Origin: Okamejei kenojei
Lineage: Eukaryota
Direction of reading: 5' to 3'
Length of the DNA: 64,000 nt
NCBI GenBank assembly: GCA_035221665.1
Contig: CM069156.1
Span: forward strand, 29,574,001-29,638,000
The notes beneath the pieces were generated by a model. That model was not told the DNA's origin. It worked only from the letters and a program-made list of their open reading frames with translations, and ran no database searches. Positions within the stretch are counted from its first letter, which is position 1. Every line of letters starts with the position of its first letter. A program made the translations under genes and the position numbers. Positions 3,575-60,777 of this stretch are shown here, one piece after another.

Positions 3575-3770
3575 AGCAACAAAGAACTGCAGATGCTGGT
3601 TAATATGCAAAAGGACACAAAGGACTCACCAGGTCTGGCAGCACCTCTGGAGAACACGGATAGGTGACGTTTCGGGTTGAGACCCTTCTTCAGACTGATT
3701 GTAGGGGGAGGGGAGGGGGGGAAGTAAGCTGGAAAAGGGAAGAGGCAGGACAAAGAGGCTGGAAAAGCCA
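3575..3770 (-). mobile_element. Penelope-terminus-derived short element
   Basis: Reverse complement of the terminus of the Penelope element at 48840-49050. Confidence 0.8.
3666..3695 (-). ncRNA. Minimal hammerhead ribozyme motif (Penelope-type), core intact
   Basis: Minus strand reads gtCTGAAGA A GGGT CTCA ACCC GAAAC GTC: CUGAnGA core, stem II, GAAA, palindromic ACGT stem III, GUC cleavage triplet. Confidence 0.6.
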
Positions 3771-3921
3771 TTTATTCTAATTCTCTCTGAGCTGACGACA
3801 CAGTTAAGAAGCAGACACATTGACTGGTTGGGAGTTACATGTAGGTTAGACCAGATACGGGTGGAGTATTCCCTTCCCAGCAAGGATTCTGCAACAATCA
3901 GGTAGTCATCCAAAGGTGTTA

Positions 3922-4090
3922 AACATAGAAAATAGGTGCAGGAGTAGGCCATTCGGCCCTTCGAGCCAGCACCACTATTCAATATGATCATGGCTGATCA
4001 TCCAAAATCAGTACCCTGTTCCTGCTTTCTCCCCATATTCCTTGATTATGTTAGCCCTAAGAGCTATATGTAGCTCTCTCCTGAATACAT
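3922..4090 (-). mobile_element. CR1 LINE 3' end
   Basis: CATAGAAAATAGGTGCAGGAGTAGGCCATTCGGCCCTTCGAGCC, the reverse complement of the CR1 tail. Confidence 0.9.
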
Positions 4091-4289
4091 GAAAGTACCA
4101 GTGAGGATGTCAGCTCCAATAGGTGTGACTGTACCACTGAGAGTGACCACACATCTGAGCTGCTCTCCCATTGACTAGCTCTCTAATTCTGGATTTATGT
4201 GTTTGAATAACAATTCCTCAGCTGCCATTGTACAATTTGGAACAAGAACTCTGAATGCCCGTCTGCCGGGATTAGTGGGTATTTCTTAT

Positions 4290-4935
4290 AAGAAAAGGTT
4301 CGAGAAACTTGGATTGTTTTCTCTGGAACAGCAGAGGTTATGAAAAGATAGAAGTGCATAAAATTATGAGAGATGTGAATAGGATAGCCAGTCATAATCA
4401 TTTTCCCAGTGTGGAAATGTCAAAGACTAGAGGGCATAACTTTAACGAGAGGAGGGTAAAGTTTAAAGGAGATGTGTGAGGCAAGTTTTTTTACGCTTTG
4501 ATAAAAATACCTCTATTGTAACTTTGGGTCATTGGGGGTTTCGGGTTTTTCAACCTCAGACACCCTCACCCAGCCGCGGTTGATCAGACCATGACTTGTG
4601 TTCAGGTGGCAATCCCCATGGACCTTCTCTCCTGATCCAGAGCCATCTCGAGGCCTTCTCCGCTGCCTCTGTGGTGTTCTTGATGGCTCTTCTCCTCGCC
4701 ACTCCGTTGATGCCCAGTGCATTCAGAGAATGTTGGGTGCATGGAAAGCGCTGCTGGGGGTGGTGGTGAAGGCAGATACATTAGTGGCATTTAAGGGACT
4801 TTAAGCGCATAGATATGCTGGGAATGCAGGGGTATGGATCACATGTAGACGGATGAGATTGGCTTTTCTTGGCATGCTGGGCATGGATGTTGTGGGCAGA
4901 AGGGTCTGTTCCTATGCTATACCTTTCTATGTGCT
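4290..4935 (+). mobile_element. Older CR1 (HER1-like) 3' fragment interrupted by an insertion at ~4495-4720
   Basis: TTGGATTGTTTTCTCTGGA...AAGTTTAAAGGAGATGTG...TTTTTTAC, resuming at CAGAGAATGTTGGGTGCATGGAA, ending GGGCAGAAGGGTCTGTTCCTATGCT. Confidence 0.8.
4513..4720 (-). mobile_element. R2-Hero-like non-LTR retrotransposon 3' fragment
   Basis: My translation of the minus strand from 4720: ALGINGVARRRAIKNTTEAAEKASRWLWIRREGPW, matching the C-terminal EAAEKASRWLW motif of Hero elements. Confidence 0.7.
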
Positions 4936-5264
4936 ATCACTATGAAAGGTCTTTACCTCCGCCCACCTAGGTCAGAAGGTCAAAGATCAATAATTGAAAA
5001 GCTATAAATAATTTCCTGAAAATCTGACTCAACAAACGGCTGAAAAATTAGCCCTGGATCTGACATCTCGGTTGCACTGGATGCCACAGTTACTCACTGA
5101 ACAAACAGGGGAACTATATTTAAATATTATTTTGTCAATTTAAATTTGGTCTCTGTGTTTGCAGCTGTGGAAGTCTTCCTATTAATTAGAATATATTTCC
5201 ACTTCCCTGGCTGTTAAACCTAACAAGGCCATGAATACATTCTGTTACTGTCAGTGTAGCGCCT

Positions 5265-5505
5265 GGCTCACGAAGAAGAGAATCTGGGGAGTTTTCCCAG
5301 AAGTCCCGAGGTCAATACGTATTCCCAGATCAACAGCGGACTCTTTGGTCATTATCCCACTGCCGTTTCTGGGATCTTGCTGTGTATTGACAGGTCTCCA
5401 TGTTTCCTTGGTAACCACACTTCAAAATAACTTCCTTGGCAATAAAATGCTTTGGAACCGTCCTGTAGTTGGGAAAAGGTGCCGTGTAAATAATAAGTCC
5501 TTGCT
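5265..5505 (+). mobile_element. Deu-domain SINE remnant
   Basis: GAAGAAGAG...GGAGTTTTCCC...GGGATCTTGCTGTG...ACACTTCAAAA...TTGGC..TAAAATGCTTTGG..GTCCTG. Confidence 0.6.
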
Positions 5506-5521
5506 TTATTTCTCATTACTG

Positions 5522-5536
5522 GTAACCATGGGCAAC
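5522..5536. promoter_or_regulatory. RFX X-box-like motif
   Basis: GTAACCATGGGCAAC fits GTNRCC(N0-3)RGYAAC; motif match only. Confidence 0.25.
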
Positions 5537-6418
5537 GAGGTACCACCTCACTTCAGTTATTTCCGGAACTGACTACTTTAACATATAATCACATTTACGA
5601 TGCCAATAAACCACAGAGATAGATACTTAGACAAGCGCTGTGACAGCTAATGAAAATAAACTCTTCCTGGGACAGCCTGCGGCAGTGAGAACATCAGAAA
5701 ATCAATTTGAGTCCACAGACCTGAATACATTAAGCAAATTAAATTTAAACTTGTCTTTGCCCCGACAGGCGGGAATACAGACCAGCATATGGGTCCTGGT
5801 GTGTTACGATATTTATCAGTGTGTTCTTGACCCCAAAGCAGATGTGAACAGCTGGTCAGGTTTGCATGTTGTGGAGACCTCTTGCAACCGAGGTGTTCAC
5901 GAGTAACATTTTACTTTCTGCTCAACTCGCTCGAAAACGTGAAAGCTGGCGGCTCGATAAGGGTTACCGGTTGAACGATTGTGCCTATTGCAACATCATG
6001 GAATCACAGCTCCTCAGTAAACATGAAATGTCGTCTCTGTGGCAACGTGAGAAATTCATCAGCCCAACTGTGCATAGCAAGATCCTAAAAGGACATTCAG
6101 ACAGGTTTGGAGGGATATGGGTCCAAGGCTGGCATATTGGACCAGCGTAGGTGGGCGCCATGGTTGGCAAGGATGAGTTGGGCCAAAGGGCCCGTTTCCT
6201 CGCTGTTTGACTCAGTAAACCCTTGGATAAATCTGCTTCAGTGATGTTGATGGTGGGACAAATATTGGCAGATTTATTCCACTTTGTTTTAATTCACGTC
6301 ATGGCCTCTATTATGTTCACCAGAGAGCGATGAATGAGTCTTGTTTCATCGGAATGCGGGCACCTCACACAGAGCAGCAAACATTGAGCTCATGAAGTCG
6401 CAAACTACATCAATTACA

Positions 6419-6650
6419 AGCTAAAGATAGACATAAAAAGCTGGAGTAACTCAGCGCGGTAACAGGCAGCCTCTCAGGAGAGAAGGACATGGGTGGACGT
6501 TTTGGTGACGAGACCCAAAACGTCACGCACTCATTTCGTTTTCTCCAGAAATGCCTGCCTTGTCCTGCCTGAGGTACTCCAGCTTTTGTGTGGTCTATCT
6601 TCGGTTTGAACCCAGCATCTGTTACAACTCTCCTAATTCACTCTCTGCTC
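6419..6650. mobile_element. Fold-back Penelope-derived element (indel-rich copy)
   Basis: Inverted arms AAGATAGAC...GCTGGAGTAACTCAG...GACGTTTT / AAAACGTC...CTCCAGCTTTT...TCTATCTT, flanked by ACTA(C)ATCAATTACA direct repeats. Confidence 0.75.
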
Positions 6651-7139
6651 ACTAATCAATTACACGGAGAATAATTGGCTGCAGTTAGAGACTTCCGCAC
6701 ATGCAGACGACACCCCCCGACACATGAGTTTATCGTTTTCAAAAGCCGAAAGCACTAATTGCGCTCAGTAGATATTTTTTAAGACAGCAGTATCATGGCT
6801 GTCTTTCAATCAATCACCAGCAAGTGCCACCAGCAACTTTTGCAGAAATGCTTTCTTGTAAACAGTATTTTTCGGATGAGGAATGACCTCAGTGGAGAGG
6901 TGGGTTCAGTTTACATGATAGGTACTACAGTCACTTGACACTGTCCATACCAGCAGCACCCCACGGGAAATTATAACATATGGCTGGAACTCAATCCCTT
7001 CACTGACCTGCAGCCACGCCAGTGGGTATTAACACCACATGCTGGAAATGACAACACTCATTAATACTGACATCGCAGGGGATACGAACGAGCACAGCCA
7101 CATGCACTAGAACTGACACATACACTCGTTGCCTCCACA

Positions 7140-7734
7140 CCCGTATGCTTCACGTATATCAGAGGTCGATCCACTCAGTAACGTTACTGGATTCACAAGG
7201 GACACTCTGACTACTCTGAAACATGAACACACATTGTATCGCGCGACGCACCACAAATACACACGGAAGGTGGACACATCCATTGTTACTAAAGACTCAC
7301 AAACGGAACTGACTACCCCCCCCCCCCCCCCACAACAATTGGAACAACAACACACATTTAACGCAATGGTAAGAGTAGCGATGAAAGGAGGGGTGGGCCT
7401 TCGTGGTCAGCGCCTCCTGCGTGTGTGGGGACCCAACACAGACCAGTGGAGCACATCCGTCTACCAGTTGCACCAAACCACCGGTCCACCGACGTTTGGA
7501 CCTGGACAATGAACACGTTGGCCTGGCTCGCCTCAACGGATGCTACAGGTCTAAAAGACATACGGCAGAAGAAGAACACACACACATACCCACACACGCG
7601 CAAGCACACACGCTCACAGAGGTGATGCACCTGTTGTTGTTAAGGACTCACAATGGAACGGACTACCTCATTGGAACATGCACACCACGCACACATGTAA
7701 GCACGCAACACTCCAAGAGGTGATGCAGCACCTA
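7140..7734 (+). repeat. Degenerate CA-rich minisatellite (~100-120 bp unit); last unit continues at ~9556-9635
   Basis: Recurring GAGGTGATGCAC..TGTTACT..GACTCACAA..GGAAC..GACTACC..ATTGGAACA..CACAC near 7160, 7265, 7618 and 7717. Confidence 0.55.
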
Positions 7735-9553
7735 CAGTGGCTTGCAAAACGTATTCCATACCCATTTGAACTTTCCTCCCACATTTTGTCACATTACAAC
7801 CACAAACGTAAATGTATTTTATTGGGGTTTTATATGATAGACCAACACAAAGTTGTGTATAATTGTGAAGTGGAAGGAAAATGATACATGGTTTTCACAA
7901 ATTTTTTTACAAATAAAAAACTGAAAAGGTGTGTCGTGCAAAAGTATTCAGCCCCCTTTAACTCTGATACCCCTAAATAATAAATCCAGTGCAACCAATT
8001 GCCTTCAGAAGTCACGCCAATTAGTAAATTAGAGTCCACTTGTGTGTAATCTAATCTCAGTATAATACAGCTGTTCTGTGAAGGCGCTAGGTTTGTTAGA
8101 GAACCATTAGTGAAACCAAACAATGTTCCTTGAGGCATCATGAAGCCCCAAGGAACACACCAGTCAGGTCCAGGGATAAAGTTGTGGCGAAGTTTAAAAG
8201 CAGGGTTAGGTTATAAAAAAATATTCCCAAGCTTTGAACATGTCACTTAGCACTGTTTCAATCCATCATCCAAAAATGGAAGAATATGGCACAAACTGCA
8301 AACCTACCAAGACATGGCCGTCTACAGCCTAAACTGACAGGGCCGGGCAAGGAGAGCATTGATCAGAGAAGCAGCCAAAGGAGGGCCATGGCAACTCTGA
8401 GGAGCTGCAGAGATCCACAGCTCAGGTGGGAAGAATCTGTCCACAGGACAACTATTAGTCGTGCACTTCCACAAATCGGGCTTTTATGAAGAGTGGACAA
8501 GAAAAAAGCCATGTTGAAACAAAGCCATAAGAAGTGCCGGTTTGCAGTTTACCACAAGCCATGTGGGGGACACAGGCAAACATGTGGAGGAAGTGTGCTC
8601 TGGTCTGATTGAGACCTAAATGTGTGGGCGGTGGCGGAACTAACACTGAACACACCACTTCCATCCCTCCTCGCCTCCTCTTATCCCCCGTACACCATCC
8701 CAACCCCCTTAACCACATCATACTCTCCATCCTCTTAACCCCTCCCATCCCCCCCCTCTCCCTCGACCCCATCTTCCTCCATCCCACTTCACACCTTCCC
8801 CAGCCTGGGTGAAACTTGTGTGGTGGCAGCATCATGCTGTGGGGATGCTTTTCCCTTCAGCAGGGACAGGGAAGCTGGTTCAGAGCTGATGGGAAGAATG
8901 GATGGAGCCAAATACAGGGCAACAATGTGGAAGAAAAACATGTTAGGAGGTCTGCAAAAGACTTGAGACTTGGCGGAGGTTCACCTTCCAGCATGACAAC
9001 GACCCTAAACATACAGCCAGAGCTACAATGAAATGGTTATAGAAAAAAAAAAAAAATCAAAGCATATTCATGTGTCTAGTAGAATGGCCCAGGCAAAGTC
9101 CAGACCTAAATCCAATTGCGAGACTCTCTGCAAGACATGAAAAATTGCTGTTCACAGACGCTCTCCATCCATCTGCCTGAGCTTGAGCTATTATTGCCAA
9201 ACGAAGAATGGGCAAAAACTTTCAGTCTTCTAGATTGTGCAAAGCTGGTAGAGATAGTTTTTACCCCAAAAGACTCGGTGCAGCTGAAATTGCCAGCGAA
9301 AGGTAGTTCTACAAAAGTATTGACCCAAGGGGCTTTGAATACTTTTGCCACGCTCCACACTTTTTCAGTTTTTTATTTGTAATAAAATTTGGAAACATGG
9401 TATAATGTTCCCTTTCCACTTCACAATTTTGCCACACTTTGTGGTTGGTCTATCACTATAAAATCCCAATAAAATACATTTACGTTTGTTGTGTTGATAA
9501 CGTGACAAATATTTGGAAATATTCAAGGGTATGAATACTTTTGCAAGCCACTG
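7735..9553 (+). mobile_element. Tc1-family (IR/DR-type) DNA transposon, full length, transposase frameshifted
   Basis: TA TSD (7733-34, 9554-55). TIRs CAGTGGCTTGCAAAA..GTATT..ATACCC / GGGTATGAATACTTTTGCAAGCCACTG (~220 bp) with inner DRs at ~7937 and ~9330. Transposase motifs GLGYKK, TANLPRHGR, WSD-ET, GGSIMLWGCFS, DNDPKH-like, SPDLNPI. Confidence 0.95.
8140..9323 (+). pseudogene. Tc1 transposase, multiply frameshifted
   Basis: ATGAAGCCC start at ~8140 to ...KGSSTKY stop at ~9323; ORF track fragments 8286-8489, 8816-9031, 9116-9382. Confidence 0.85.
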
Positions 9554-18955: not shown

Positions 18956-18984
18956 TAGACCGCGGTCTGTTAGTGTAATTGAAA

Positions 18985-19095
18985 GTGAAGATAGACATAG
19001 AACGATGGAGTAATGCAGCGGGTCAGGTAGCATCTCGTCTCGGAAAAAGAATTGGTCGTCTTTCGGGTCGAGACCACTTCTACAGACTGATGGAT
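18985..19095 (-). mobile_element. Penelope-terminus-derived short element
   Basis: GATAGACA...GGAGTAA..CAGCGGGTCAGG.AGCATCTC...TTTCGGGTCGAGACC..TTC.ACAGACTGAT. Confidence 0.7.
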
Positions 19096-21552: not shown

Positions 21553-21640
21553 GAGACTGAAGAAGAGTCTTGACCCAAAACATCACCCATTTCTTGCTGC
21601 CTGTCCTGCTGAGTCATTCCAGCATTTCGTGTCTAGCCTC
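21553..21640 (+). mobile_element. Penelope-terminus-derived short element (decayed hammerhead motif)
   Basis: CTGAAGAAGAGTCTTGACCCAAAACATCACCCAT...GCTGCCTGTCCTGCTGAGT. Confidence 0.7.
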
Positions 21641-25744: not shown

Positions 25745-26145
25745 CCACGTTTAAAGGAGATGTGCAGGGCAACTTTTTTACACAGAGAGTGATAGGTGCC
25801 GGGAATGAGCTGCTAGGCGTGGTGGTGAAGGCAGATATAATTGTGGTATTTAAGCTATTAGATAGGCACATGGTATGTGCAGGGAATGGAGGGATGTACG
25901 TCATGTGCAGACAGAGGAGATTAACTTGGCAACTTGTGTAGGAAGGAACTGCAGATGCTGGTTTAAACTGCAGATAGGCACAAAAAGCTGGAGTAACTCA
26001 GTGAGACAGGCAGCATTTCTGGAGCAAAACATTCCTTTGTTGCCTGTCCCGCTGAGTTACTCCAGCTTTTTTGTGTTTAACTTGGCGTCCTGTTCAGTAC
26101 AGACATTGTGGGCTGAAGGGCCTGTTCCAGTGCTGTACTGTTCTA
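25745..26145 (+). mobile_element. CR1 3' fragment interrupted by a fold-back Penelope-derived element
   Basis: TTTAAAGGAGATGTGCAGGGC...CAGAGAGTG...GGGCTGAAGGGCCTGTTCCAGTGCTGTACTGTTCTA. Confidence 0.85.
25931..26076. mobile_element. Fold-back Penelope-derived element with 10-bp flanking duplication
   Basis: Inverted arms CACAAAAAGCTGGAGTAACTCAG..AGACAGGCA / TGCCTGTCCCGCTGAGTTACTCCAGCTTTTTTGTG; TTAACTTGGC at 25921-25930 and 26077-26086. Confidence 0.8.
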
Positions 26146-29239: not shown

Positions 29240-29372
29240 AGAGTCTGAAGATGGGTCTCGACCCAAAACGTCACCCATTCCTTTTCTCCAGAGATGCTAC
29301 CTGTCCCGCTGAGTTACACCAGCATTTTGTGCCTATCTTTGGTTTAAACCAGCATCTGCAGTTCCTTCCGAC
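29240..29372 (+). mobile_element. Penelope-terminus-derived short element
   Basis: GTCTGAAGATGGGTCTCGACCCAAAACGTCACCCATTCC...CCAGCATCTGCAGTTCCTTCC. Confidence 0.85.
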
Positions 29373-29794: not shown

Positions 29795-30186
29795 GGTCTG
29801 AAGAAGGGTCTCGACCCGAAAAGTCTCCTATTCCTTTTATCCAGAGATGCTGCCTGACCGGCTGAGTTACTCCAGCTTTCTGTGTCTATCTTCACTTACT
29901 CACTAACAGATGGCCCAGTGGCACAGCTGATAGAGCTGCTGCCTCAGAGCGCCAAAGACGCGGGTTCGATCCTGACCTTGGGTGAATGTGGAGTCTATAC
30001 ATTCTCCCTGTGACGGCAAGGATTTCCTCCGGTTTTCTGCCATGTCCAAAAGTCATGTGGGTTTGTAGGATAATTGGGCACTCTGTAAATTGTCTCCAGT
30101 GTGTAAAGAAAGTGGGACAACATAGAACTAGTGTGAACCAGTGTGAATGGTCGGCGTGGACCCAGCATCTGCAGTTCCCTCCTACG
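29795..30186 (+). mobile_element. Penelope-derived short element split by a V-SINE (~29910-30160)
   Basis: GTCTGAAGAAGGGTCTCGACCCGAAAAGTC...TGTGTCTATCTTC, then the SINE, then CCAGCATCTGCAGTTCCCTCCTAC. Confidence 0.8.
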
Positions 30187-30841
30187 CCAGGGAGAGCTGT
30201 TGTGTTCGTTAAAACAGTGGCGCTTTCACCCAAGAGGGTGCACGGGGCTTTGGGATAACACTTTGTTTGATAGACAACATTGCAGCAACTCTTCAGCACT
30301 GCAAAGGGAAAACAATCAGCAATGTTCTGACTCTGAAGCAGTACTATTAACTGAGACATGGAGGCCAACAGCAAGAGGCATCCTGAAGGCATCGGATAAA
30401 TGGTGGCAATTCCTTTTTATTTTAAACAATAAGAAAGAAGTTATTGCATCTGAATGTTTGCTTCCACACTGGGAGTTCGGGGCATGGTCTTGGTCTCCAC
30501 TCTCAAGAATATAGAGGCATCACAGAGGTGATAACATATAGAGGTATCAAAGTGGGAATAACACAACAAACAGGTTTGTAACAACAGGAACGGCTAGACT
30601 GGGTGCTACACTGACAGACAATCAAAGTAGCTGCACATACTGAAAATATGAAATTAAAACCGAAAATATTGGAACTGCCCAGCATGTCTGGCAGCTTCTG
30701 GGGAAAGATAAATGGTTAATGTTTACGATCCAGAACCTTTCGAAATAAGGGCTCCGGTCCTGAAACATTAACCGTTTCTCTCTCCACAGATGCTGCTGCC
30801 ACATACGATGGTGAGATTAGCAAAACTGCAGGCCACTAGTG

Positions 30842-31120
30842 AGTAGGAAGGAACTGGTTTACACCGAAGATAGACACAAAAAGCTGGAGTAACTCAGCGG
30901 GTAAGGCAGCAAATCTGGAGAAAAGGAATTGGTGACGTTTCGGATCGATTTGGCTTTGATCTGTCTTTTTGCATATCTTACATGAATTTGTTCTATGTAG
31001 CTTTTCATATCTCTCAGTTCCCTCTCCCCTGAATCAGTCTGAAGAAGGGTCTTGATGCGAAACATCACCTATTCCTTTTCTCCAGAGATGCTGCCTGACC
31101 CGCTGAGTTACTCCAGCTCT
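30842..31120. mobile_element. Fold-back Penelope-derived element with spacer
   Basis: Left arm AAGCTGGAGTAACTCAGCGGGT..GGCAGC..TGGAGAAAAGGAAT.GGTGACGTTTCG; right arm CTGAAGAAGGGTC...CACCTATTCCTTTTCTCCAGAGATGCTGCCTGACCCGCTGAGTTACTCCAGC. Confidence 0.85.
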
Positions 31121-31577
31121 AGATATGGCTTAATATCTTAGGCCATTAAGTGAGTCTCAAATCAATCCAACGGAGAAATCTCTTCACCAAGAGAAAGCTA
31201 ATAATGTGGAACATGCTTACACATTCCCCAGATACTTCCTGCCTTGCTAAGTATTTTCAGTACTATCCACTTTTATATCTCAGAAAGCATCGGAGGGGAT
31301 GCATAGATAATTGTAAGGGTGAGCAATGAAGTGTATGTGGTGGGTAAGGCATGGTGTTAGTAGATGTCGATGGGGCTAGAAACAGGTGGTAAAGAGTGGT
31401 CAGTGAAAAAGCAAACAAAACATTTTGCAGATGTTGTAAATCTGAAACATAGAAAATACTGGAAAGAGCAAGTCAGGCAATATCTATGGATAGATATTGG
31501 ACAATATCTAGGGAGAGAAACAGTTAAGGTTTCAGGTCTACGATCCTTTGTCTGGGCTGGCTGTAAAAAAAGAGTAT

Positions 31578-31969: not shown

Positions 31970-32230
31970 GTCTCTAAAGCTGGAGAATTTGTTTTTTTCC
32001 AGAATGCTGAAACGGACCCAGAAGGAAGGTGAGGTGTTGTCCTCGAACTTGTGTTCGGCCTCGATGTAATAGTGTAGGTGATCATTGATAGATCTGAGTC
32101 TGAAGAAGGGTCCTGGCCCAAAACACTGTCCATCCATTTGGTCCACAGATGCTGCTTGACGTGTTGAGTTCCTCCAGCACTTTGTGTTTTGCTCAAGATT
32201 CCAGCATCTGCAGTTCTTTGTGTCTCCACT
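31970..32230. mobile_element. Penelope fragments: minus-strand GIY-YIG C-terminal remnant plus plus-strand terminus
   Basis: Minus strand LHYYIEAEHKFED.. resembles LLHCRSAAQRKLAEQHL at ~48750; GTCTGAAGAAGGGTCC...CCAGCATCTGCAG at 32097-32225. Confidence 0.6.
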
Positions 32231-32297: not shown

Positions 32298-32786
32298 TGG
32301 ACGTCAAGCTACAGCAAGCTACCGAGAACCGCCAACCCATTAGGACGTCCACCTACGACCACACCTCTGACTAGCTGCGGCCACACAGGCGACAACCTAC
32401 GACAACCAAAGTCAACCTATGTCCACCCGCGACAAGTTACGACCCTGTCGGTGACAACTGAAGACAACTGAAGACAATTCAGTTGCTGGTACTTGACGTA
32501 GGTTGGCGTAGGGAGTCGGCAATGGAATTCACCGAAGTCAGCACCCGGCGACAACCAGCGTCACCTGGCGACAGCCCATGATGGCACCTACGTTAGGAGA
32601 AGACAAGCTACGTCAAGCCCACAGTCGCCGAAAAGTTTCAAAATCCAGCGGCGACCAGAAAAACGTTACGACTCTTTAGGTGACTTGAGGAGACTACTCG
32701 CGACCATACAGGCATCACCCCGCGACCATGTGGCGACAACCTAGTCGCCTGTAGTCGCTAAAAAAATCGCCTAAGTGCCACAGGGG
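32298..32786. mobile_element. Truncated Harbinger-type MITE with internal CTACGAC/GGCGAC repeats
   Basis: CpG-rich; right end ATCGCCTAAGTGCCACAGGGG resembles the ..CCAAGTGGGACAGGCCCT ends of the MITEs at 31578 and 58037; no left TIR seen. Confidence 0.55.
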
Positions 32787-32789
32787 ATT

Positions 32790-33278
32790 CTGGCAGCATC
32801 TATGGAGGACATGGATAGGTGACATTTCTAGTCAGGTCCCTTCATCGGTCCCTTTTTCAGAGAAGGGCAACTGTGGAGAAAGTGAAGGAGAAAAAGAGGG
32901 AGGGAATAGATGAAGTGATGAGTGGGAGAGAGAAAAAATAAACGGAGAAAGAAAATGAGACAGCAGGAACTGTAGATGCTGGAATCTTGTACAAAACACC
33001 AAGTGTCGTTGCAACTCAGCAAGTCAGGCAGCATCGGCGGAGGAGATAGATAGGTGACGATTTGAGAAGAGTTCTGAACATCCTCAACAGATGCCGCCTG
33101 ATCCACTGAGCTACTCCAGCACTTTGTGCTTTGATTCAAGAAAGACAAAGAACGGGATGGGGTGGGTGCTGGGCAACTGGAAGGTGCAATCACCCAATCT
33201 ACGTTTGGTTTCTTCAACACAGAGTAGGCCACAGTGTGAACAGCGAATGCAGTACACGAGATTGGAAGAAGAGGGCGT
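32790..33278 (-). mobile_element. Cluster of Penelope-derived termini and a GIY-YIG fragment
   Basis: ORF 33111..33368 contains SSNLVYCIRCSHCGLLCVEETKRRLGD; terminus copies at 32790-32850 and 32965-33135. Confidence 0.75.
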
Positions 33279-34980: not shown

Positions 34981-35734
34981 ATGAAAGGGAATGGGCGAGT
35001 GAGAGTGAGGAAATGAGATATGGAAGAGTGAAAATGAGAATAATGCGATTGAAACAGTGTATAGTGAGTGATAAAGAATGCAAGTATGAGACAGTGAAAG
35101 GGGATGAAGGGCTGTGTGCAATCAGCACACTAGGAGATAAGTAAGGGTACAGAATGGTCCCAGCCTGCTTTCAAATGTCCTGCCCACAAATTCTCACCAG
35201 TGGCTGCATGACACGTCGAAATGATCCAATATGGAGGCTCCAATAGCCAATATCGCTCACGGAACAGAAGCCACTCTATCTCTGGCATGGTTCTACCGGG
35301 GTCAAGATTCTGCTTGTCATTGAAGCTTTGTCCTACTGGGGAGTCGCAATGAGCTTTTTTCCGGCTCTTTTCCAGCTTTCTGCTCCTATCACTCGGAGGA
35401 AGTGTCCAAACCAGAATCTTTGCTTGTCCATTCCCTCTGTAGATGCTGCCTGCCCTTCTGAATTCCTCCAAAAGTTTGTGTTTTGCTCAAGATTCCAGCA
35501 TCCACAGTTTCTTGTGTATCAAAGCGTTTTATTCTCGATTTTATCACTGGACATTTGGGAGATTCTAGGATGAACTGGAAGGAGTTACCAACCGTTTACT
35601 GAAGCAATAATTTGTAAGGAGCAGGTGTGGGCCACTGAGGGCTGAGCTCTGAGCGGTGCCAAGTTTGCTGTGTGGTTTGAGTGGGATCATGTTTCAGTCC
35701 AACTTCAGGATGATGATTGAAAAACCAAAATGGT

Positions 35735-37729: not shown

Positions 37730-38062
37730 AATTTTACATCCACCTATCTCATTTTCTCTGGCATCACAATTCACTCCTCTCCTTATCTTACACCCTTTTG
37801 CCTTCTTGACCTCATCTTGTGCCTTTATCCGCCTATCTGCCATTCAAACTTTCCTCATCTGTAGCCACCTATCACTTGCCAGGCTCTATGCCATCCCCAC
37901 CTCTTCTCTAACTTTCTCCAATACTCACTACAATCACTTTGAAAAAGGGTCCCTACCCAAAATGTCACCTATCCATGTTCTCCAGAGATGCTGCAGGACC
38001 TGCTGAGTTACTCCAGCACTCTGCGTTTTTTTGTAAGCCAGCATCTGCAGGTCTTTGCATCC
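37730..38062 (+). mobile_element. Penelope-terminus-derived element with pyrimidine-rich leader
   Basis: ACAATCACTTTGAAAAAGGGTCCCTACCCAAAATGTCACCTATCC...CCAGCATCTGCAG. Confidence 0.7.
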
Positions 38063-42231: not shown

Positions 42232-44120
42232 TTTCAATTCAATTCAATCTTTAATTGTCATTGTGCAGTGTACAATACAGAGACAACGAAATGCAGTTGG
42301 TATCTCCGAAGGGCGAACTTACGAATAAACAAGTAATTGCGCAGTAGTATGAGTATATACGTCTATACATATACAGTGGTATCCGTGCAATTTGCTGGTG
42401 ATTGGATAGTTCGGGGGGGGGGGAGGGGTGGAGACAGGCAGTCATTGAGGTGCAGCGTTGAGAAGTGTGACAGCCGCAGGGAAGAAGCTGTTCTTGAGCC
42501 TGCTGGTACGGCAGCGGAGGGACCTGTAGCATCTCCCGGATGGGAGGAGGGTAAACAGTCTATGGTTGGGGTGTGAGCTGTCCCTGGCGATGCTGTGCGC
42601 CCTGCGCAGGCATCGTTTACTATGGACAGACTCAATGGAGGGGAGTGAGGAGGCTGTGATGCGTTGGGCGATCTTCACCACCCTCTGCAGAGCTTTCCGG
42701 TCGGCGACAGAGCAGTTACCATACCATACTGTGATGCAGTTGGTAAGGATGCTCTCGATGGTGCAGCGGTAGAAGTTCACCAAAATCTGGGGAGACAGGT
42801 GGACCTTCCTAAGTCTCCTCAGGAAGAAGAGACGCTGGTGAGCCTTCTTGATCAGCGAGGATGTGTTGTGGGTCCAGGAGAGATCATCGGAGATGTTGAC
42901 CCCCAGGAACCTGCAGCTGGAGACACGTTCCACCTCCGTCCCGTTGATATGGATGGGGTTGTGCGTGCAGCCTCTCGATCTCCTGAAGTCCACAATGAGC
43001 TCCTTGATCTTCTTGGAGTTGAGGGCCAGGTTATTGTCGGCACACCATGCTGTTAGGAGCTGAACCTCCTCCCTGTAGGCCGACTCATCGATGTCGCTGA
43101 TGAGGCCAATCACCGTCGTGTCATCTGCATACTTGATGATGGTGTTGGTGCCATATACAGGTATGCAGTCGTAGGTGAAGAGGGAGTAGAGGAGGGGGCT
43201 CAGCACGCAGCCCTGGGGTACGCCAGTGTTCAGGGTGAGGGTAGAAGAGGAGTGGTTATCCAACCTAACAGACTGTGGTCTGTTGGTTAGAAAGTCCAGT
43301 ATCCAGTTGCAGAGGGAGGGTTTGATGCCCAGGTCATCGAGTTTGGCGATCAATTTAGAGGGGATAATGGTGTTGAATGCTGAGCTGTAGTCGATGAACA
43401 GCATTCTCACATAAGTGTTTCTGTTGTCGAGGTGGGAGAGGGCGGAGTGGACTGCCGTTGAGATGGCACCCTCCGTGCTCCTGTTCTTGCGGTATGCAAA
43501 CTGGTAGGGGTCCAGAGTGGGAGGTAGGCAGCATTTGAGGTGTGCCATGACCAGCCTTTCAAAGCACTTGGCGATGTAGGGGTGAGTGCAACTGGGCGGA
43601 AGTCGTTGAGGCTCGCCGCAGTGGAGTGTTTTGGCACTGGCACGATGGAGGTAGTTTTAAGGCACGTGGGGACAACTGCCTGGGCAAGTGACAGGTTGAA
43701 GATGTCAGTCCAGACGTCTGTCAGCTGTGCAGCACAGGTCCTGAGGACGCGCCCATGGATGCCGTCAGCCTTACGTACATTGATCCTACTCAGTGCCACG
43801 TGCACGTTGTAGGGGTTGAGTGTGAGGGGCTGGTGGTCATCGGGGAGCACAGCCTTGATGGCCAACTCTTGGTTGTCCCTTTCAAAGCGGCCATAAAAGT
43901 GATTGAGTTCCTCGAGGAAGGATGCGTCGCTGGAAGTGGGGGTGGAGTTGGTGGCTCTGTAGTCAGTGAAGGCCTGGATGCCATGCCACATGCGTCGGGG
44001 GTCGGAGTTGCTGTCGAAGTGCTCCTCGATCCGCAGCTTGTATCTGTGTTTGGTGTTATTGATGCCCCTCTTCAAATTGGCCCTCGATGAACTATAGGCA
44101 CGGGCATCGCCTGGCCTGAG
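42232..44120 (-). mobile_element. Rex1/Babar non-LTR retrotransposon, 5'-truncated, RT nearly intact
   Basis: ORFs 43407..44123 and 42442..43548: [56 protein letters not shown]; (ATTGA)n tail at 42233-42248. Confidence 0.95.
42442..43548 (-). CDS. Rex1/Babar reverse transcriptase domain and C-terminus (368-aa open segment of a truncated element)
   Basis: RT motifs including YADD; one frameshift near 43570 separates it from the upstream ORF. Confidence 0.8.
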
Positions 44121-47371: not shown

Positions 47372-47603
47372 TTGAGTTGAGTTTAGTTGAGTTTATTGTC
47401 ATGTGTACTGAGGTACAGTGAAAAGCTTTTGTTGCGTGCTAAACAGTCATCGGAAAGACAATGCATGACTCCAATCGAGCCATCCACTGTGTACAGATAC
47501 ATGATAAAAGGAATAACATGAATAACGATTAGTGTAAGATAAAGCCAGTAAAATCCGATCAAAGATAGTCCGAGGTTCTCCAATGAGGTAGATAGTAGTT
47601 CAA
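47372..47603 (-). mobile_element. LINE 3' UTR fragment (Rex1/Babar-like)
   Basis: GTTGAGTTTAGTTGAGTTTATTGTCA tail, ACAGTGAAAAGCTTTTGTTGC; similar plus-strand copies at ~23760-23870 and ~54490-54570. Confidence 0.55.
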
Positions 47604-47659
47604 ACTATGGCACTGGAAACACAGGGAGCAAATCTACTAGCTGGAATGTTTCTCCCTCA

Positions 47660-49050
47660 ATGCCCAAAGACGTTCCCCACCAGGAAGGTCTTAAAGCCCT
47701 CCGTTTCTTCCTCGACCACAGAAACAGCCAATTTTCCTCTACTAATACTCTCCTCCGCCTACCAGAGCAGGTCCTTACCCTCAACAACTTCTCCTTCGAC
47801 TCCTGCCACTTCCTCCAAATCCACGGCGTAGCCATGGGCACTCGATGGGCCCCAGCAATGCCTGCCTCTTTGTAGGGTACATCGAACAACCACTGTTCCA
47901 GGCGTACACTGGCCCTATCCCCGAACTCTACCTCCACTACATTGATGATTGCATTGGCGCTACCTCCTGCACCAACTAATTTCCATCCTGCACTCAAATT
48001 CACTTGGACCATCTCCGACATCTCCCTATCGTTTCTGGATCTCACCGTCTCCATCACAGGAGACAGACTATTGACCGACATCTACTACAAACCTTCTGAC
48101 TCCCATAGTTATCTAGACTACACTTCTTCCCACCCTGCTTTCTGTAAAGACCCTATCCCCTACTCCCAATTCCTCCGTCTACGCCGCATCTGCGCCCAGG
48201 ATGAGATTTTTCATACTAATTCATTGGAGATGTCCTCAATCTTTAGGAAACGGGGGTTCCCCTCTTCCATTATCTCACTGGGGTTTCCTCGATATCCTCC
48301 AACACTTTCGCCACCTCCAACGGGATCCCACTACTGGCCACATCTTCCCATCTCCACCCCTTTCTGCTTTCCGCAGAGACCGTTCCCTCCGCAACTCCCT
48401 GGTCAACTCGTCCCTTCCCAACCAAACCACCCCTGCCCCAGGTACTTTCCCCAGCAACCGCAGGAGATGCAACACATGTTCTTTTACCTCCTCTCTCTAC
48501 TCAATGGAAGGACCCCAACAGTCTTTTCATGTGAGGCAGAGGTTCACGTGCACCTCCTCCAACTTCATCTACTGTATCCGCTGTTCCAGGTATCAACTCC
48601 TGTACATCGGCAAGACCAAGTGCAGGCTCGGCGATCGTTACACTGAGCACCTCCGCTCAGTCCGCTTTAACCTACCTGATCTCCCGGTTGCGCAGCACTT
48701 TAACTCCCCCTCCCATTCCCAATCTGACCTTTGTGTCCTGGGCCTCCTCCATTGTCGGAGTGCGGCCCAGCGCAAATTGGCAGAACAGCACCTATTTTGC
48801 TTGGGCAGCTTACACCCCAGCGGTATGAACATTGACCTCTAATTTCAAGTAGCCCTTGCTTTCCCTCTCTCTCCATCCCCTCCCCCTTCCCAGATCTCCC
48901 AACAGTCTTACTGTCTCCGACTACATTCTATCTCTGTCCCGCCCACTCCCCTGACACCAGTCTGAAGAAGGGTCTCGACCCGAAGCGTCGCCCATTCCTT
49001 CTCTGCAGAATGCTGCCTGTCCCGCTGAGTTACTCCAGCATTCTGTGTCT
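47660..49050 (+). mobile_element. Penelope-like retroelement (RT plus GIY-YIG), 5'-truncated and frameshifted, with 3' terminal repeat
   Basis: GVAMGTR, YIDDCIG, LSFLDLTV, IYYKPSDSHSYL; GIY-YIG FTCTSSNFIYCIRCSRYQLLYIGKTKCRLGDRYTEHLRSV; terminus with hammerhead-like motif at 48962-48989. Confidence 0.93.
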
Positions 49051-49224
49051 TTTACCAAGGACAGGGAGTGTTTATCTTATGATGCAGTAGCACCATCACC
49101 TTATACGGGTCATTGCATGTAGAATTATAATGGCACAGAAGGAGCTAAATTGATCTTTTGAGTCTCATTTGGCTCCTTGGGTCATTCTCCTGCTCTTTTC
49201 CCCAGTCCACTCAATTGCCTGCAA

Positions 49225-49425
49225 AATAATAAATGCTGGAGGAGATCAGCAGGCCAGGCAGCATCTGTGAAGGGAATGGATAGGTGATATTTTGGGTCAG
49301 TCTGAAGAAGGGTTCTGACCTGAAATGTCGCTTGCCCATTCCCTCCGCAGGTCCTGCCAGACCCATCGAGTTCCTCCATCACTCTGTGTTTTGCTCAAGA
49401 TTTGAGTATCCACAATTCCTTGTAC
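49225..49425. mobile_element. Fold-back Penelope-derived element
   Basis: TGCTGGAGGAGATCAGCAGGCCAGGCAGCATCTG...GGTGATATTTTGGGTC joined to AGTCTGAAGAAGGGTTCTGACCTGAAATGTC...GAGTTCCTCC. Confidence 0.75.
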
Positions 49426-50689: not shown

Positions 50690-50950
50690 GAGCTGGAAGA
50701 ACGGTCCCGACCCAAAACGTCACCTATCCATGTTGTACAAAGATATTGCCTGAGTTACTCCAGGACTTTACTTATTTTTTGTTGTAAACCAGCATCTGCA
50801 GTTCCTTGTTTCTACATCTCAGAGTTTGAGTCTCTGCTTGTTACATTACGTGTGGAGAAAACACAAAGTGCTGGAGCAACTCAGTGGGTCAGGCAGCATC
50901 TGTGGAGAAGACGGACAGATGATGTTTTGGGTCAGGGCCCTCCTTCACAT
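50690..50950. mobile_element. Two oppositely oriented Penelope-derived termini
   Basis: GAAGAACGGTCCCGACCCAAAACGTCACC...CCAGCATCTGCAGTTCC (+) and ACACAAAGTGCTGGAGCAACTCAG...TTTTGGGTCAGGGCCCTCCTTCA (-). Confidence 0.75.
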
Positions 50951-51619: not shown

Positions 51620-52125
51620 CTCCTACACTAATCTCCCATCCCCGTCCCTTATTTCCCTTTTATCCCCCTTCTTTCCCCTCTCCCCTGTCCCGTTCCACTT
51701 ATATCCCTCCCTCCGGCTTAAGATTTCACTCCTCTTCTCTCCTTATCTGATAGCTATGTCTTCTTTGCACCTCTAACCTTTGTTACTTACTCCACTCCTC
51801 TGCCAATCAACCCCCTGTACTGGTACTCAACAGTCAACCAGCCAGACTTTCTCCCACCCCCACCTCTCTTTCCCAGCTTTTACCCTACCATAATCAATCT
51901 GCAGAAGGGTCCTGATCTGAAAGGTAGGCACAAAATGCTGGAGTAATTCAGCAGGACAGGCAGCATCTCTGAAGAGAAGGAATGGGTGACGTTTCAGGTC
52001 GAGACCCTTCTTCAGACCTGAAACATTGTCTGTCCATTCCCTCTGCAGATGCTGCCTGACCCACCGAGTTTCTTCATCGCTTTATGTTTTGCTCAGGATT
52101 CCAGCACCTGTGGTTCCTTGTGTCT
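51620..52125. mobile_element. Compound Penelope-derived element (plus-strand terminus with a nested inverted terminus)
   Basis: Pyrimidine-rich leader, CTGCAGAAGGGTCC, inverted copy at 51922-52017, then GAAACATTGTC...CCAGCACCTG. Confidence 0.75.
51988..52017 (-). ncRNA. Minimal hammerhead ribozyme motif (Penelope-type)
   Basis: Minus strand gtCTGAAGA A GGGT CTCG ACCT GAAAC GTC; core intact, G-U pair at the base of stem II. Confidence 0.5.
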
Positions 52126-53432: not shown

Positions 53433-53584
53433 ACCACTTTTCTCCCCAACACGATGCTCAGTCGGGGAGAAAGTCCAGCAGTAATTCTAAGTTCACTGTA
53501 CAGCATCCCATCCCCTGTTCCTTTCCAACTGCAGAATACCTTCCAGTTCCACAATCTAACGACTCATCCAGAAATTAATACAAT

Positions 53585-54875: not shown

Positions 54876-55191
54876 ACCAATACCAGATGCCAAAGCAGAA
54901 AGCACTGGAGTAACTCAGCATCTGTGGGGGGAATGGACAAGTGATGTTTGGGTTGGGGTCTTTCTTTGTACTCAGAATTCTACCATTTGCTGTTCCTTCT
55001 GTCCCTATAAATGGGCACCTGTTTGTGAGCTTCTATGAATGGTGATCCCAGCAGGCCCAACGCATGTGGCAGTCGCACAGAATCCAAAGCACCCGCCTGT
55101 GTTAGGCTTGTGCCAAATATAAATGCCTCACGTGGGCTTCACCAAACAGTGAACTACGCCTCTGTCCTGGTGAAACTTGTCCTGGTGAGAC

Positions 55192-55492: not shown

Positions 55493-56030
55493 ATCTTTGG
55501 TTCCTGCTGCTCTCTCTGTCTCAGTTACCAGATGAGGACTGGGACTGTTGTGAGATATGATGTGAACTAATGATGCCAAGGATTTGTGATGCTTATCTGA
55601 CTGGATCAAGACTTCCTGTTTGACCTTTATTTTTTAAGCAGTGCAGGCAATAGATATAATGAATGTACCTGGATTCATGCCGAATTTCTTTCACAGATAG
55701 CCTTCTGCTGAATAATGATATAATTAATCTTTTTATTTCATTTCCTCTATTTGTGCGGTTAAAGCTTAATTATCAATTGTTTGTTACAAATTACAACGGT
55801 GTTCCATCCCTCCATGTTATTTGTCAATCGATGCTCTGTTTGCCGATTGATATCATGAGGCAGTATGGCATTCAATCTTTTGTTGGCATTTGTTAGTCTC
55901 TCGGTGACTTTAAAAAAAAACAAACATGTTTCATTCCCTCATGGTACCCCTGTGTAAAATGCCACAACACGTTCTCACCTGCTCTTGCCCTTTCACCACT
56001 GTCCGCAAGAGGCCTGCAGGCAGTACTCTG

Positions 56031-56044
56031 GTCACCATGGCAAC
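56031..56044. promoter_or_regulatory. RFX X-box motif
   Basis: GTCACCATGGCAAC, near-consensus X-box in non-repeat-looking sequence; motif match only. Confidence 0.3.
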
Positions 56045-59105: not shown

Positions 59106-59421
59106 GCATGGTTAAAGCAATGGAGCTGAATCTGACTCCCACCTTGAAATGAATCCTTCCAGGAATAAGCAGCAGCTGCTGATTGATTATATGCCTCTTG
59201 CCATTGTGGTTCAAAAGCCTCGTGCACACAGAAGAACTGAGCTATAAGACTCTATTGATATTCTTCACTCTCACAAGATGTCTCAGATTGGTGATCTGGC
59301 TAAGGTCCCGATAGCTTCACAACACAAAATGGTCTCCCCGTATCTGTGACCTCACCTGTGCTCTGATCCACAGCCATCTCATTGACACAAGTTGCAAATC
59401 CCAAAGTGAATTCCCACACCA

Positions 59422-59721
59422 GTGTTGCTGCCTCACAGAACCTTCAGCGCCAGAGACCCGGGTTCGATCCCGACTACGGATGCTGTATGTACTGAGTTTG
59501 TACATTCTCCCCGTGACCTCGTGGGTTTTCTCTGAGATCTTCGGTTTCCTCCCACACTCCAAAGACGTACAGGTATGTAGGTTAATTGGCTTGGTGTAGA
59601 TGTAAATTGTCCCTAGCGTGTGTAGGATAGTGTTAATGTGCGGAGGTCGCTGGTCGGCACAGACTCGGTGGGCCGAAGGGCCTGTTTCCTCGCTGGATCT
59701 CTAAACTAAACTAAACTAAAC
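59422..59721 (+). mobile_element. V-SINE, young-looking
   Basis: CAGCGCCAGAGACCCGGGTTCGATCCCGACTACGG...GACTCGGTGGGCCGAAGGGCCTG; tail (CTAAA)4. Confidence 0.92.
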
Positions 59722-59764
59722 TCTAGGAATTGTGGACGACATTCAGCCGATTGAACCTGTGCTG

Positions 59765-59960
59765 GTGTGTAGGAAGGAACTGCAGATGCTTGTTTAAACT
59801 GAAGATAGACACAAAAAGCTGGAGTAACTCAGCAGGACAGGCAGTATCTCTGGAGAGAAAGAATGGGTGACGTTTCAGGTTGAGACCTTTCAGGTTCAGT
59901 CTGATGAAGGGTCTCGACCTGAAATGTCTCCCAATCCTTCTCTCCAGAGATGCTGCCAGT
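59765..59960. mobile_element. Fold-back Penelope-derived element
   Basis: Minus-strand terminus 59765-59892 joined to plus-strand GTCTGATGAAGGGTCTCGACCTGAAATGTC...AGAGATGCTGCC. Confidence 0.85.
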
Positions 59961-60074
59961 TCCGGGGAATCTGTGGTGCTTCTTTGTCGAGCAATTCTGT
60001 CACCCATTGAAGGCCCTGCTCTTTCACGGTAAGTATGCCCTTTATTTTCACTCAAGTTTTGATTGTTGACCTAC

Positions 60075-60335
60075 GCAGCAAGGCCCACCAATCAATATTA
60101 ACCATTGGTCTACTGTGCACACTAGTTCTACATTACCCCACTTTCACATCCACACCCTGCACACTGGGGGCAATTTGCAGAGGCCAATTAACCTACAAGC
60201 CCACACGTCTTTGGGATATGGGAGGAAACCGGGAGAACGTGCAAACTCCACACAAATAACATTGGAGGTCAGGATTGAACTCCAGTCTCTGGGGCTGAGA
60301 AAGCAGCTCTACAGCTGTGCCACTGTGCCACCCTA
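60075..60335 (-). mobile_element. V-SINE
   Basis: ACTAGTTCTA...GAGGCCAATTAACCTACAAG...GCAAACTCCACAC...GCAGCTCTAC..CTGTGCCAC. Confidence 0.8.
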
Positions 60336-60603
60336 AAGTGACGATCCATCTCCCGTTTGAAAACTCTGATTCTTTCTGTTTCCACCAGCCCTATAGGCAA
60401 TTCATTAGCTTGGCACCTACCTCGTATGGTGTGAGCAGAGGTTTGGAAAAAGCTTTTCCCCAGTCGATGGAAAGTCTTGGACAGGCAACCTGGACCCACC
60501 TAGATGGAGCACACAAATCCACATCGATTAAGAACTTGTCAGCAGAACAGTCATACATTCAAACAGCATACAACAACTTTAATTCAAATGTTTAAGAAAT
60601 TTC

Positions 60604-60777
60604 GAAGGTAGACAAAAATGCTGGAGAAACTCAGTGCGTGAGGCAGCATCTATGGAGAAAAGGAGTAGGCGACGTTTCGGGTCGAGACCCTTCTTCAGAC
60701 CCGAAACGTCGCCTATTCCTTCTCTCCATAGATGCTGCCTCACCCGCTGAGTTTCTCCAGCATTTTCGTCTACTTTC
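60604..60777. mobile_element. Near-perfect fold-back Penelope-derived palindrome (~80-bp arms)
   Basis: GAAGGTAGACAAAAATGCTGGAGAAACTCAG...GACGTTTCGGGTC / GACCCGAAACGTC...CTGAGTTTCTCCAGCATTTTCGTCTACTTTC. Confidence 0.9.
60671..60700 (-). ncRNA. Minimal hammerhead ribozyme motif (Penelope-type), consensus-perfect
   Basis: Minus strand gtCTGAAGA A GGGT CTCG ACCC GAAAC GTC followed by gcct (short stem I possible with upstream gggt). Confidence 0.65.

What the first reader, a model, noticed from the sequence alone, without database searches (positions are those of the whole stretch)
3575..60777. Dense family of short Penelope-derived elements carrying a minimal hammerhead ribozyme motif
Seen: about 20 dispersed 100-300 bp elements (e.g. 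3575, 6419, 18985, 21553, 29240, 29795, 30842, 32097, 32790, 35400, 37930, 49225, 50690, 51900, 59765, 60604) match the 3' terminus of the RT/GIY-YIG Penelope element at 47660-49050. Their shared anchor is CTGA(A/T)GA-A-GGGT-CTCG-ACCC-GAAAC-GTC. This reads as a hammerhead core (CUGAnGA, 4-bp stem II, GAAA, loopless palindromic ACGT stem III, GUC site) with one extra A after the core. Core-intact copies are 3666-3695(-), 51988-52017(-) and 60671-60700(-); many others show CpG-type decay. Established: Penelope-like elements carry minimal hammerheads that cleave as dimers through a palindromic stem III. Inference: this is a non-autonomous, ribozyme-bearing, retrozyme-like SINE family about as abundant here as the V-SINEs, and it may seed self-cleavage sites in host pre-mRNA.
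Basis: partly seen in the sequence, partly recalled or inferred. Interest (0 to 1): 0.7.

Follow-up and report, generated by a model that had tools for sequence, protein, structure and literature searches.

The report
Cap-ended stubs of Penelope retrotransposons
These very abundant short repeats are end pieces of a known jumping gene (a Penelope-like element) that carry its known small self-cutting RNA motif; most begin just in front of that motif, often with an extra G, which likely marks where the copying enzyme ran off the capped start of an uncut RNA, so they are a record of how this element copies itself rather than a new ribozyme family.

Summary
Observation confirmed: 32 arms at about 23 loci in the window; 48,629 exact motif copies in the genome. 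The motif is the published minimal hammerhead of Penelope-like elements (PLEs), extra A included (PMC4209133). The retrozyme/SINE reading is not supported. Copies do share a 5' boundary, but it lies about 3 nt before the core, not at the cut site: 56 of 101 arms stop at -7..+7, 4 at +28..+31; genome-wide, starts at the cut (275) equal a control position (260). An untemplated G precedes the -3 start in 35 of 39 restart junctions, against 10 of 44 ordinary truncations. A full-length parent shows this unit is the start of the element's own leader. Best reading: reverse transcription starts internally (+92 or +127) on capped, uncut PLE RNA and runs off the cap, giving stubs and twin-primed hairpins. 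Core decays neutrally; two of three intact window copies are locked in hairpins. Cleavage untested. The scan noted this pattern before on other DNA of this and other genomes.

The parts
47600..49057 (+). 5'-truncated, frameshifted Penelope-like element (part of RT region, GIY-YIG region, 3' UTR, terminal unit)
   Evidence: GIY-YIG E 0.002, below cut-off; 152,084 first-look candidates and 237 scored matches in the genome; same layout as full-length L151
48962..48989 (+). hammerhead motif of the parent copy, core broken (A15.1 lost)
3579..3698 (-). read-through copy with tail; core-intact motif at 3666-3693; pyrimidine-rich 3' UTR upstream
6421..6621 (.). head-to-head hairpin; 10-bp flank repeat
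18987..19090 (-). single arm, decayed core
21554..21640 (+). single stub starting at about -3; 9-bp flank repeat
25942..26085 (.). short hairpin lacking the hammerhead
29242..29368 (+). single stub starting at -3 with tail; G directly before the start
29796..29894 (+). single stub starting at -2
30625..30797 (.). old head-to-head hairpin
30853..31120 (.). head-to-head pair with an 86-nt gap
31425..31553 (-). old single arm
32097..32221 (+). single stub starting at -3 with tail; G directly before the start
32769..32849 (-). single arm
32963..33136 (.). head-to-head hairpin
35389..35515 (+). old single arm with tail, core destroyed
37934..38057 (+). read-through copy with tail, decayed core
49223..49423 (.). 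head-to-head hairpin, one short arm and one tail arm
50694..50809 (+). single stub; 8-bp flank repeat
50854..50949 (-). single stub, tail-to-tail with the previous one
51898..52121 (.). hairpin holding the core-intact motif 51988-52015 (-), whose 3' half is paired by the other arm
   Evidence: -93.4 kcal/mol, z -4.8
54891..54970 (-). old single arm
59773..59965 (.). head-to-head hairpin, both motifs broken
60600..60778 (.). hairpin holding the only exact motif 60671-60698 (-), whose 3' half is paired by the other arm
   Evidence: -145.6 kcal/mol, z -21.7

Best explanation
The repeats are 95-130-bp insertions of the terminal unit of an RT/GIY-YIG Penelope-like element, and they are likely run-off copies of the capped 5' end of uncut element RNA rather than a self-copying ribozyme family. 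Numbering from the first C of the hammerhead core (0): SHOWN: copies end at +92 or +127, most start at -7..+7 with a mode at -4..-1, carry their own target-site duplications, and often have an untemplated G before -3; in a full-length element the same unit continues straight into the 1197-codon frame. INFERRED: polymerase II starts at the A at -3 in an initiator-like YCAGT, so the hammerhead is the first ~31 nt of the RNA. The element's protein nicks a target and primes reverse transcription internally at +92 or +127 (as shown in vitro for an anole PLE, PMC11167929). Priming in the 5' copy of the unit reaches the cap after ~100-130 nt, copies it as C, and is then joined to the target (solo stub), to a second cDNA primed from the other target end at the other start site (hairpin), or jumps to another RNA end and goes on (restarts, short tandems). 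Priming in the 3' copy reads through into the 3' UTR and ORF (ordinary truncated PLEs). The hammerhead is kept by selection on source elements, is uncut in the RNAs that were copied, and decays neutrally in the copies.
For: Boundary: of 101 arms picked by an anchor 3' of the cut site, 56 stop at -7..+7 (about 3 of these are read-throughs of another subfamily), 24 run >150 nt upstream, 4 fall at -8..-150 (3 are another subfamily's UTR), 11 at +8..+19, 6 at >=+20. Genome counts of exact starts: -3 = 3,580 (3 non-reference bases), +28 = 275 and control +35 = 260 (2 bases each). Cap signature: in 100 of 581 restart junctions, 45 start at -3; G precedes 40 of 45, and 35 of 39 where the base is untemplated (p 3e-13); other untemplated letters are G in 6 of 61; direct joins after removing duplicates G 13 of 24 vs 29% background, p 0.009; control, upstream truncations G 10 of 44. 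Parent: L151 tandem, ORF 4179-7772 follows the tail; some stubs jump from -3 to ORF positions +184..+569. Hairpins: 41 of 45 have one +92 and one +127 arm (p 8e-10); arms share the +80 allele in 51 of 60 vs 43% expected. Neutral decay 118/2272 vs 193/3411. Across six subfamily majorities 11 of 12 core and 7 of 8 stem II positions are invariant while 3 of 4 loop II positions vary. Literature: internal RT start at two sites, tail, uncut RNA as main substrate, no reads ending at the cut (PMC11167929).
Against: No RNA 5' ends were seen: only assembled contigs were available. The raw first-100 tally of direct joins showed no G excess (G 36, A 42, T 22, counted by eye) until passenger duplicates were removed in the 30 fetched loci. 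Starts at -5/-4 (26 of 100) and +1..+7 are common, so the start is ragged or trimmed. In L188/189 a repeat unit starts at -33 while the outermost copy starts at -4, and in L204, L250 one arm reads through -3 while the other stops there; these need two RNAs or two pLTR copies. Only 119 exact copies of the leader-ORF junction exist against ~57,000 arms, so most stubs cannot be traced to a full-length source. The sharp tests were done mainly on the youngest subfamily, which has no copy in the window; the older window subfamilies show the same three classes and 5 restart junctions of the ACCCAT type carry the G. In D. virilis Penelope the start site lies ~120 nt before the hammerhead with an intron between (PMC2377424, PMC4209133), unlike here.
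Confidence: 0.7

Rival explanations
1. The -3 boundary is an uncapped processed end or a hard stop, not a transcription start: for example 5' trimming up to the edge of the protein-bound ribozyme, a splice-acceptor event at the conserved pyrimidine tract plus CAG, or a roadblock, with the G coming from untemplated C addition by the RT.
For: All six subfamilies have a pyrimidine tract ending in CAG right before the core; the D. virilis intron ends at the 5' end of helix I (PMC4209133); starts are ragged; L188/189, L204, L250.
Against: The G excess is specific to -3/-4 and absent at upstream truncations (10 of 44), at +28 (G 10, A 10 among non-read-through rows) and at +35 (G 4, A 6); solo stubs abut their TSD with no shared upstream exon; no GT..AG joint to -1 among the joints shown (41 joints were not shown).
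Confidence: 0.15
2. Stubs are also sources: a copy that keeps the start site is transcribed from -3 into its flank, and internal priming at +92/+127 regenerates the same unit, making a polymerase II-driven non-autonomous family (the closest form of the reader's SINE idea).
For: Copy excess (about 57,000 arms vs 119 leader-ORF junctions); PLE promoters are internal (PMC2377424); pLTR sequences can act in trans (PMC3846280 passage); two hairpin pairs at different loci share odd junctions (L013/L016; L278/L280).
Against: No stub-only subfamily among six; junctions mostly private, the only exact repeat being a plain palindrome; +80 alleles are shared with read-through copies; the anole protein needs RNA well 3' of the RT start (PMC11167929), which stubs lack. 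This mode does not use the ribozyme.
Confidence: 0.2
3. A retrozyme-like family that is cut out by its hammerhead, circularised and re-inserted, and that cleaves host pre-mRNA.
For: Intact minimal hammerhead in 56 of 72 youngest arms; small rolling repeats exist (L179, L180, L198); retrozymes derive from pLTRs (bioRxiv 10.64898/2026.07.22.740005).
Against: No excess of starts at the cut; jump targets at +27/+28 are 17 of 100, no clear peak; rolling-repeat junctions are not at the cut site; copies are dispersed monomers; neutral decay; helix I is only 2-3 bp by inspection; minimal monomers did not cleave in vitro (PMC4209133).
Confidence: 0.05

Closest known systems
[quoted passage not shown]
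   Same: No helix III loop, palindromic 15.2-16.2, extra base between 9 and 10.1, G10.1-C11.1, thousands of solo motifs, some paired on opposite strands
   Different: 48,629 exact copies here vs about 4,000 and 9,000 motifs in coelacanth and Xenopus; stem II 4 bp and helix I 2-3 bp; that paper does not describe a fixed 5' boundary of solo copies in the parts read
Anole Poseidon PAc in vitro (Frangieh 2024, PMC11167929; parts 1-2 of 4 read)
   Same: Two internal RT start sites that define a 30-40-nt tail; uncut RNA is the substrate; no reads ending at the cut
   Different: There the ORF starts inside the hammerhead; here the first ATG is at +162 and the linker has CxxxxCxxC (Neptune/Nematis-type per PMC8557442). 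No run-off at a cap, one-site-per-arm rule or restarts are reported in the parts read
Inverted pLTR insertions with one-sided tail and TSD (Arkhipova 2013 PMC3846280; Craig 2021 PMC8557442; passages read)
   Same: Head-to-head inverted ends, tail at one end, 8-10-bp TSD, solo pLTRs
   Different: There attributed to self-priming on antisense RNA; here both arms end at RT start sites and share alleles, which fits twin priming; here the whole insertion is often under 250 bp
Non-LTR retrozymes (Cervera 2020 PMC7229834 passages; Li 2026 bioRxiv 10.64898/2026.07.22.740005 parts 1-3 of 5)
   Same: Non-coding, pLTR-related, type-I hammerhead
   Different: Retrozymes are tandem arrays whose monomers run from cut to cut and form circles; these are dispersed and bounded elsewhere
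Schistosome hammerhead SINE-like elements (review PMC6765202, passages)
   Same: Short dispersed repeat with a hammerhead behind a promoter
   Different: No separate promoter head here; the unit is the end of an autonomous PLE present in the same genome

Membership tests
Endonuclease-bearing PLE | single ORF with RT and C-terminal GIY-YIG | tested here: met
   L151 1197-codon frame, RVT_1 E 5e-6 and GIY-YIG E 0.004, both just under Pfam cut-offs
Endonuclease-bearing PLE | partial tandem forming pLTRs, inverted ends, 30-40-nt optional tail, TSD | tested here: met
Neptune/Nematis clade | Zn-finger-like CX2-5CxxC linker; placement in an RT tree | tested here: inconclusive
   motif present at residue 1064; no tree built
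PLE minimal hammerhead | core letters, extra base at 9/10.1, stem II, palindromic stem III | tested here: met
   no Rfam hammerhead hit at E<=10
PLE minimal hammerhead | stem covariation across subfamilies | tested here: inconclusive
   one U-A to U-G change, no double change among six subfamily majorities
PLE minimal hammerhead | self-cleavage as dimer or with protein | not testable with these tools
   needs bench assay; no raw reads
Non-LTR retrozyme | tandem array of full units each with a hammerhead | tested here: not met
   dispersed solos and head-to-head pairs; TAN class 7 of 230 arms
Non-LTR retrozyme | unit bounded by the cleavage site | tested here: not met
Non-LTR retrozyme | circular RNA monomers | not testable with these tools
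   contigs only
SINE | own lineage of short source copies distinct from the partner element | tested here: inconclusive
   no stub-only subfamily in six, but no genome-wide tree
SINE | tRNA/5S/7SL-derived polymerase III head | tested here: not met
   unit is identical to the PLE end from its first base; no such Rfam hit on any copy

The most novel reading that the evidence does not exclude
The genome holds tens of thousands of frozen 'strong-stop' intermediates of PLE replication: the RT primes ~100 nt from the cap, copies the cap, and jumps to another RNA end, which is how pLTR tandems are rebuilt; one RNP uses its two start sites for the two target ends; and the hammerhead, 31 nt from the cap, works as a decapping switch that takes an RNA out of the retrotransposition pool instead of making the template.
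Probability: 0.3. Interest if true: 0.7.

Novelty: new variant of a known kind. Interest (0 to 1): 0.45.

Why it matters
As a ribozyme find it is ordinary: minimal hammerheads at PLE ends are published. It matters for two open questions stated in the papers read: what the PLE hammerhead does (PMC8557442: unclear) and how pLTR tandems and inverted ends are made (PMC2377424: no obvious mechanism). The copies give in vivo counts: the copied RNA was uncut, likely capped 3 nt before the core, and primed at two fixed sites, one per target end. An intact 1197-codon source exists (L151), so each step can be tested directly.

Tried and rejected
Rfam scan: no hammerhead or other ribozyme at E<=10, only hairpin-driven miRNA hits. 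Monomer folds of four motif regions are no better than shuffles (z -0.7 to 0.8) and say nothing either way. An HDV-like fold starting at -2 was considered by eye and dropped (no P3/L3 or P1.1; recalled model, no call). Cleavage at the GUC that overlaps C3 was dropped because copies keep those bases. Back-splicing from the AG/GT at +160 to -1: no such junction in 30 loci. First cap test on direct joins looked negative and was revised after duplicates were removed and restart junctions scored. Jumps onto cleaved 3' ends at +27: no clear peak. Sequencing runs: all 24 are contigs, most RNA labels are guesses; depth follows copy number, a contig in X6 bridges the cut site, and none of this shows expression, ends or cleavage. 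Host gene: 150 of 171 non-repeat frames gave no Pfam hit above cut-off; short exons would be missed. L275/L278/L280 as a replicating hairpin lineage: shared changes are few and partly the common +80 allele; left open. Lunse 2016 (PMC5785218) is not held; known only through the review PMC6765202. The G-from-cap rule for other retroelements is recalled; the search for it found nothing useful. Supplements were not opened for any paper; those of PMC4209133 and PMC11167929 may show shark motifs or copy boundaries.
Full report
Coordinates on the unit are given from the first C of the hammerhead core (C3 = 0); the predicted cut lies between +27 and +28. L-numbers are loci of the window's own genome G000 (2.76 Gb). 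The species was not determined; earlier notes call it a skate (not tested here).

1. The observation. The motif occurs exactly once in the window (60671-60698, minus) and 7 times at <=3 mismatches. The last ~110 nt of the PLE fragment at 47600-49057 hit 23 other places. The genome has 48,629 exact motif copies and 56,997 exact copies of a 33-nt anchor 3' of the cut in the youngest subfamily. A SINE seed gives 31 window hits.

2. The parent. A protein search found long open frames. L151 is a partial tandem: pLTR, a 1197-codon frame with RVT_1 and GIY-YIG hits just under cut-off, and a second pLTR. The unit runs from the hammerhead to +92, or with a 35-nt tail to +127, and in the upstream copy continues straight into the frame (first ATG +162). 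So the unit is both the 3' end of inserted copies and the leader of the next element. The linker carries CxxxxCxxC, a Neptune/Nematis trait (PMC8557442 passage); no tree was built.

3. Where copies begin. I took arms by the anchor 3' of the cut so that cut and uncut starts were equally visible. Of 101 arms in the first 4.4 Mb of one contig, 56 begin at -7..+7 (mode -4..-1; about 3 are read-throughs of another subfamily), 24 run more than 150 nt upstream, 4 lie at -8..-150, 11 at +8..+19 and 6 at +20 or later, 4 of them at +28..+31. Genome-wide, a non-reference base followed by a start at -3 occurs 3,580 times; a purine followed by a start at +28 occurs 275 times and at the control +35 260 times; about 13 of 30 and 20 of 30 of those are point mutants. 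There is thus a strong shared boundary, at the front edge of the ribozyme, and no peak at the cut. Many solo stubs have their own duplications of 8-25 bp; the simple test found none in others.

4. What the boundary is. The listing for direct joins gave G 36, A 42, T 22 of 100 (by eye), which first argued against a cap. Among the 30 fetched, removing loci carried along in duplicated flanks left G 13 of 24 against 29% background (p 0.009). Restart junctions, where a copy reaches the front and jumps back to +23..+38, are cleaner: 581 in the genome, 100 scored. 45 start at -3; G precedes 40 of them, and 35 of 39 where the base is untemplated (p 3e-13); other untemplated letters are G in 6 of 61. 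The pattern only admits starts at -2 or earlier. Ordinary upstream truncations have G in 10 of 44 (13 of 57 rows dropped because the reference base is G; two duplicate rows remain). That a copied cap leaves an extra G is recalled from other retroelements, not found in print here. The A at -3 sits in YCAGT, initiator-like (recalled consensus), in all six subfamilies. I infer a capped polymerase II start at -3.

5. Hairpins. Of 45 young hairpins, 41 have one +92 and one +127 arm, flanks are duplicated, and junctions are private apart from one plain palindrome (this set is drawn from all fetched loci, several picked by junction patterns). Arms share the polymorphic +80 base in 51 of 60 against 43% expected. 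This fits two priming events from the two target ends on one RNA or one source. The hairpins at 60600 and 51898 fold at -145.6 and -93.4 kcal/mol and pair the 3' half of the ribozyme, so these two copies would be switched off.

6. Jumps. Among 30 of 119 loci with the leader-ORF junction, several read [x..+184-569][-4..+92], so the template held ORF sequence beyond the tail, and three are rolling repeats such as [148..187][-34..187][-34..92] (L179, L180, L198). None joins at the cut. Jump targets at +27/+28 are 17 of 100, not a clear peak.

7. The ribozyme. It matches the published minimal hammerhead, including the base between 9 and 10.1 (PMC4209133). Across six subfamily majorities (228 arms from 848 kb, enriched for the youngest), 11 of 12 core and 7 of 8 stem II positions are fixed, 3 of 4 loop II positions vary, and no double compensatory change is seen; +48..+78 is about as conserved (6 of 31 vary). 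After insertion the core decays like the flank, 118/2272 vs 193/3411, p 0.48. Intact motifs fall from 56 of 72 in the youngest to 1 of 19 in the oldest subfamily. Published minimal monomers did not cleave, dimers cleaved weakly (PMC4209133), and the anole motif needed the element's protein (PMC11167929). Cleavage here is untested.

8. Against this reading. No RNA ends were observed. Starts are ragged. A few loci have one arm through -3 and one stopping there. Most stubs cannot be traced to a full-length source, so solo pLTRs or stubs may also serve as sources. The youngest subfamily, used for the sharp tests, has no copy in the window; the older ones show the same classes.

9. Print and earlier notes. 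Ten searches found the hammerhead, tail, inverted ends, internal priming and internal promoter, but no report of a fixed 5' boundary or cap G in PLE stubs, nor of this family in a cartilaginous fish; subscription papers and supplements were not seen. Read: PMC4209133 parts 1-2; PMC11167929 parts 1-2; bioRxiv 2026.07.22.740005 parts 1-3; PMC2377424 parts 2-3; passages of PMC8557442, PMC3846280, PMC7229834, PMC6765202, PMC6431247. The scan holds 387 findings with these words in at least 40 genomes and 60 in this genome; several reach the same reading, and one notes the extra G in another genome, which made me score the G in the junctions.

10. Verdict. Real, very abundant, known in kind. Not a retrozyme; a SINE only in the loose sense of short non-coding copies. 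The added value is quantitative evidence on PLE replication. Interest 0.45.

Noticed in passing
L179, L180, L198: Short tandem repeats in which the same odd 5' start and 3' end recur, e.g. [147..232][-49..232][-49..99]; they look like repeated copying of a small circle or repeated jumps on one RNA, with junctions away from the hammerhead cut.
   Followed up: partly
L196: Two arms of one insertion end at -244 and -249, and one then jumps to +338; suggests both arms copied one RNA with a 5' end near -249.
   Followed up: no
L013/L016 and L278/L280: Two pairs of hairpins at different loci with different flanks share unusual junctions; recurrent formation, gene conversion or rare re-mobilisation.
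   Followed up: partly
L151:4179-7772; G000 C6:42875736 and C16:30993106: At least two uninterrupted 1197-codon PLE frames with a long proline-rich insert; a possible splice-donor-like AG/GT at +160 next to the first ATG.
   Followed up: partly
window 42442-43656 (-): 404-codon open frame of a LINE with RVT_1 (E 1e-29) and ALKBH8_N/DUF1891-type C-terminus.
   Followed up: no
subfamily with TTCG loop (14 arms): Its majority has U at position 17 and a U-G pair in stem II, a natural weakened-site variant that still expanded.
   Followed up: no
L084, L080: Stubs inserted inside or right beside other PLE copies or other repeats with their own duplications.
   Followed up: no
window 50694-50949: Two stubs lie tail to tail 45 nt apart, unlike the usual head-to-head pairs.
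   Followed up: no
runs X1-X24: The same leader is held by runs of at least nine coded organisms, so the family is shared among related species.
   Followed up: no
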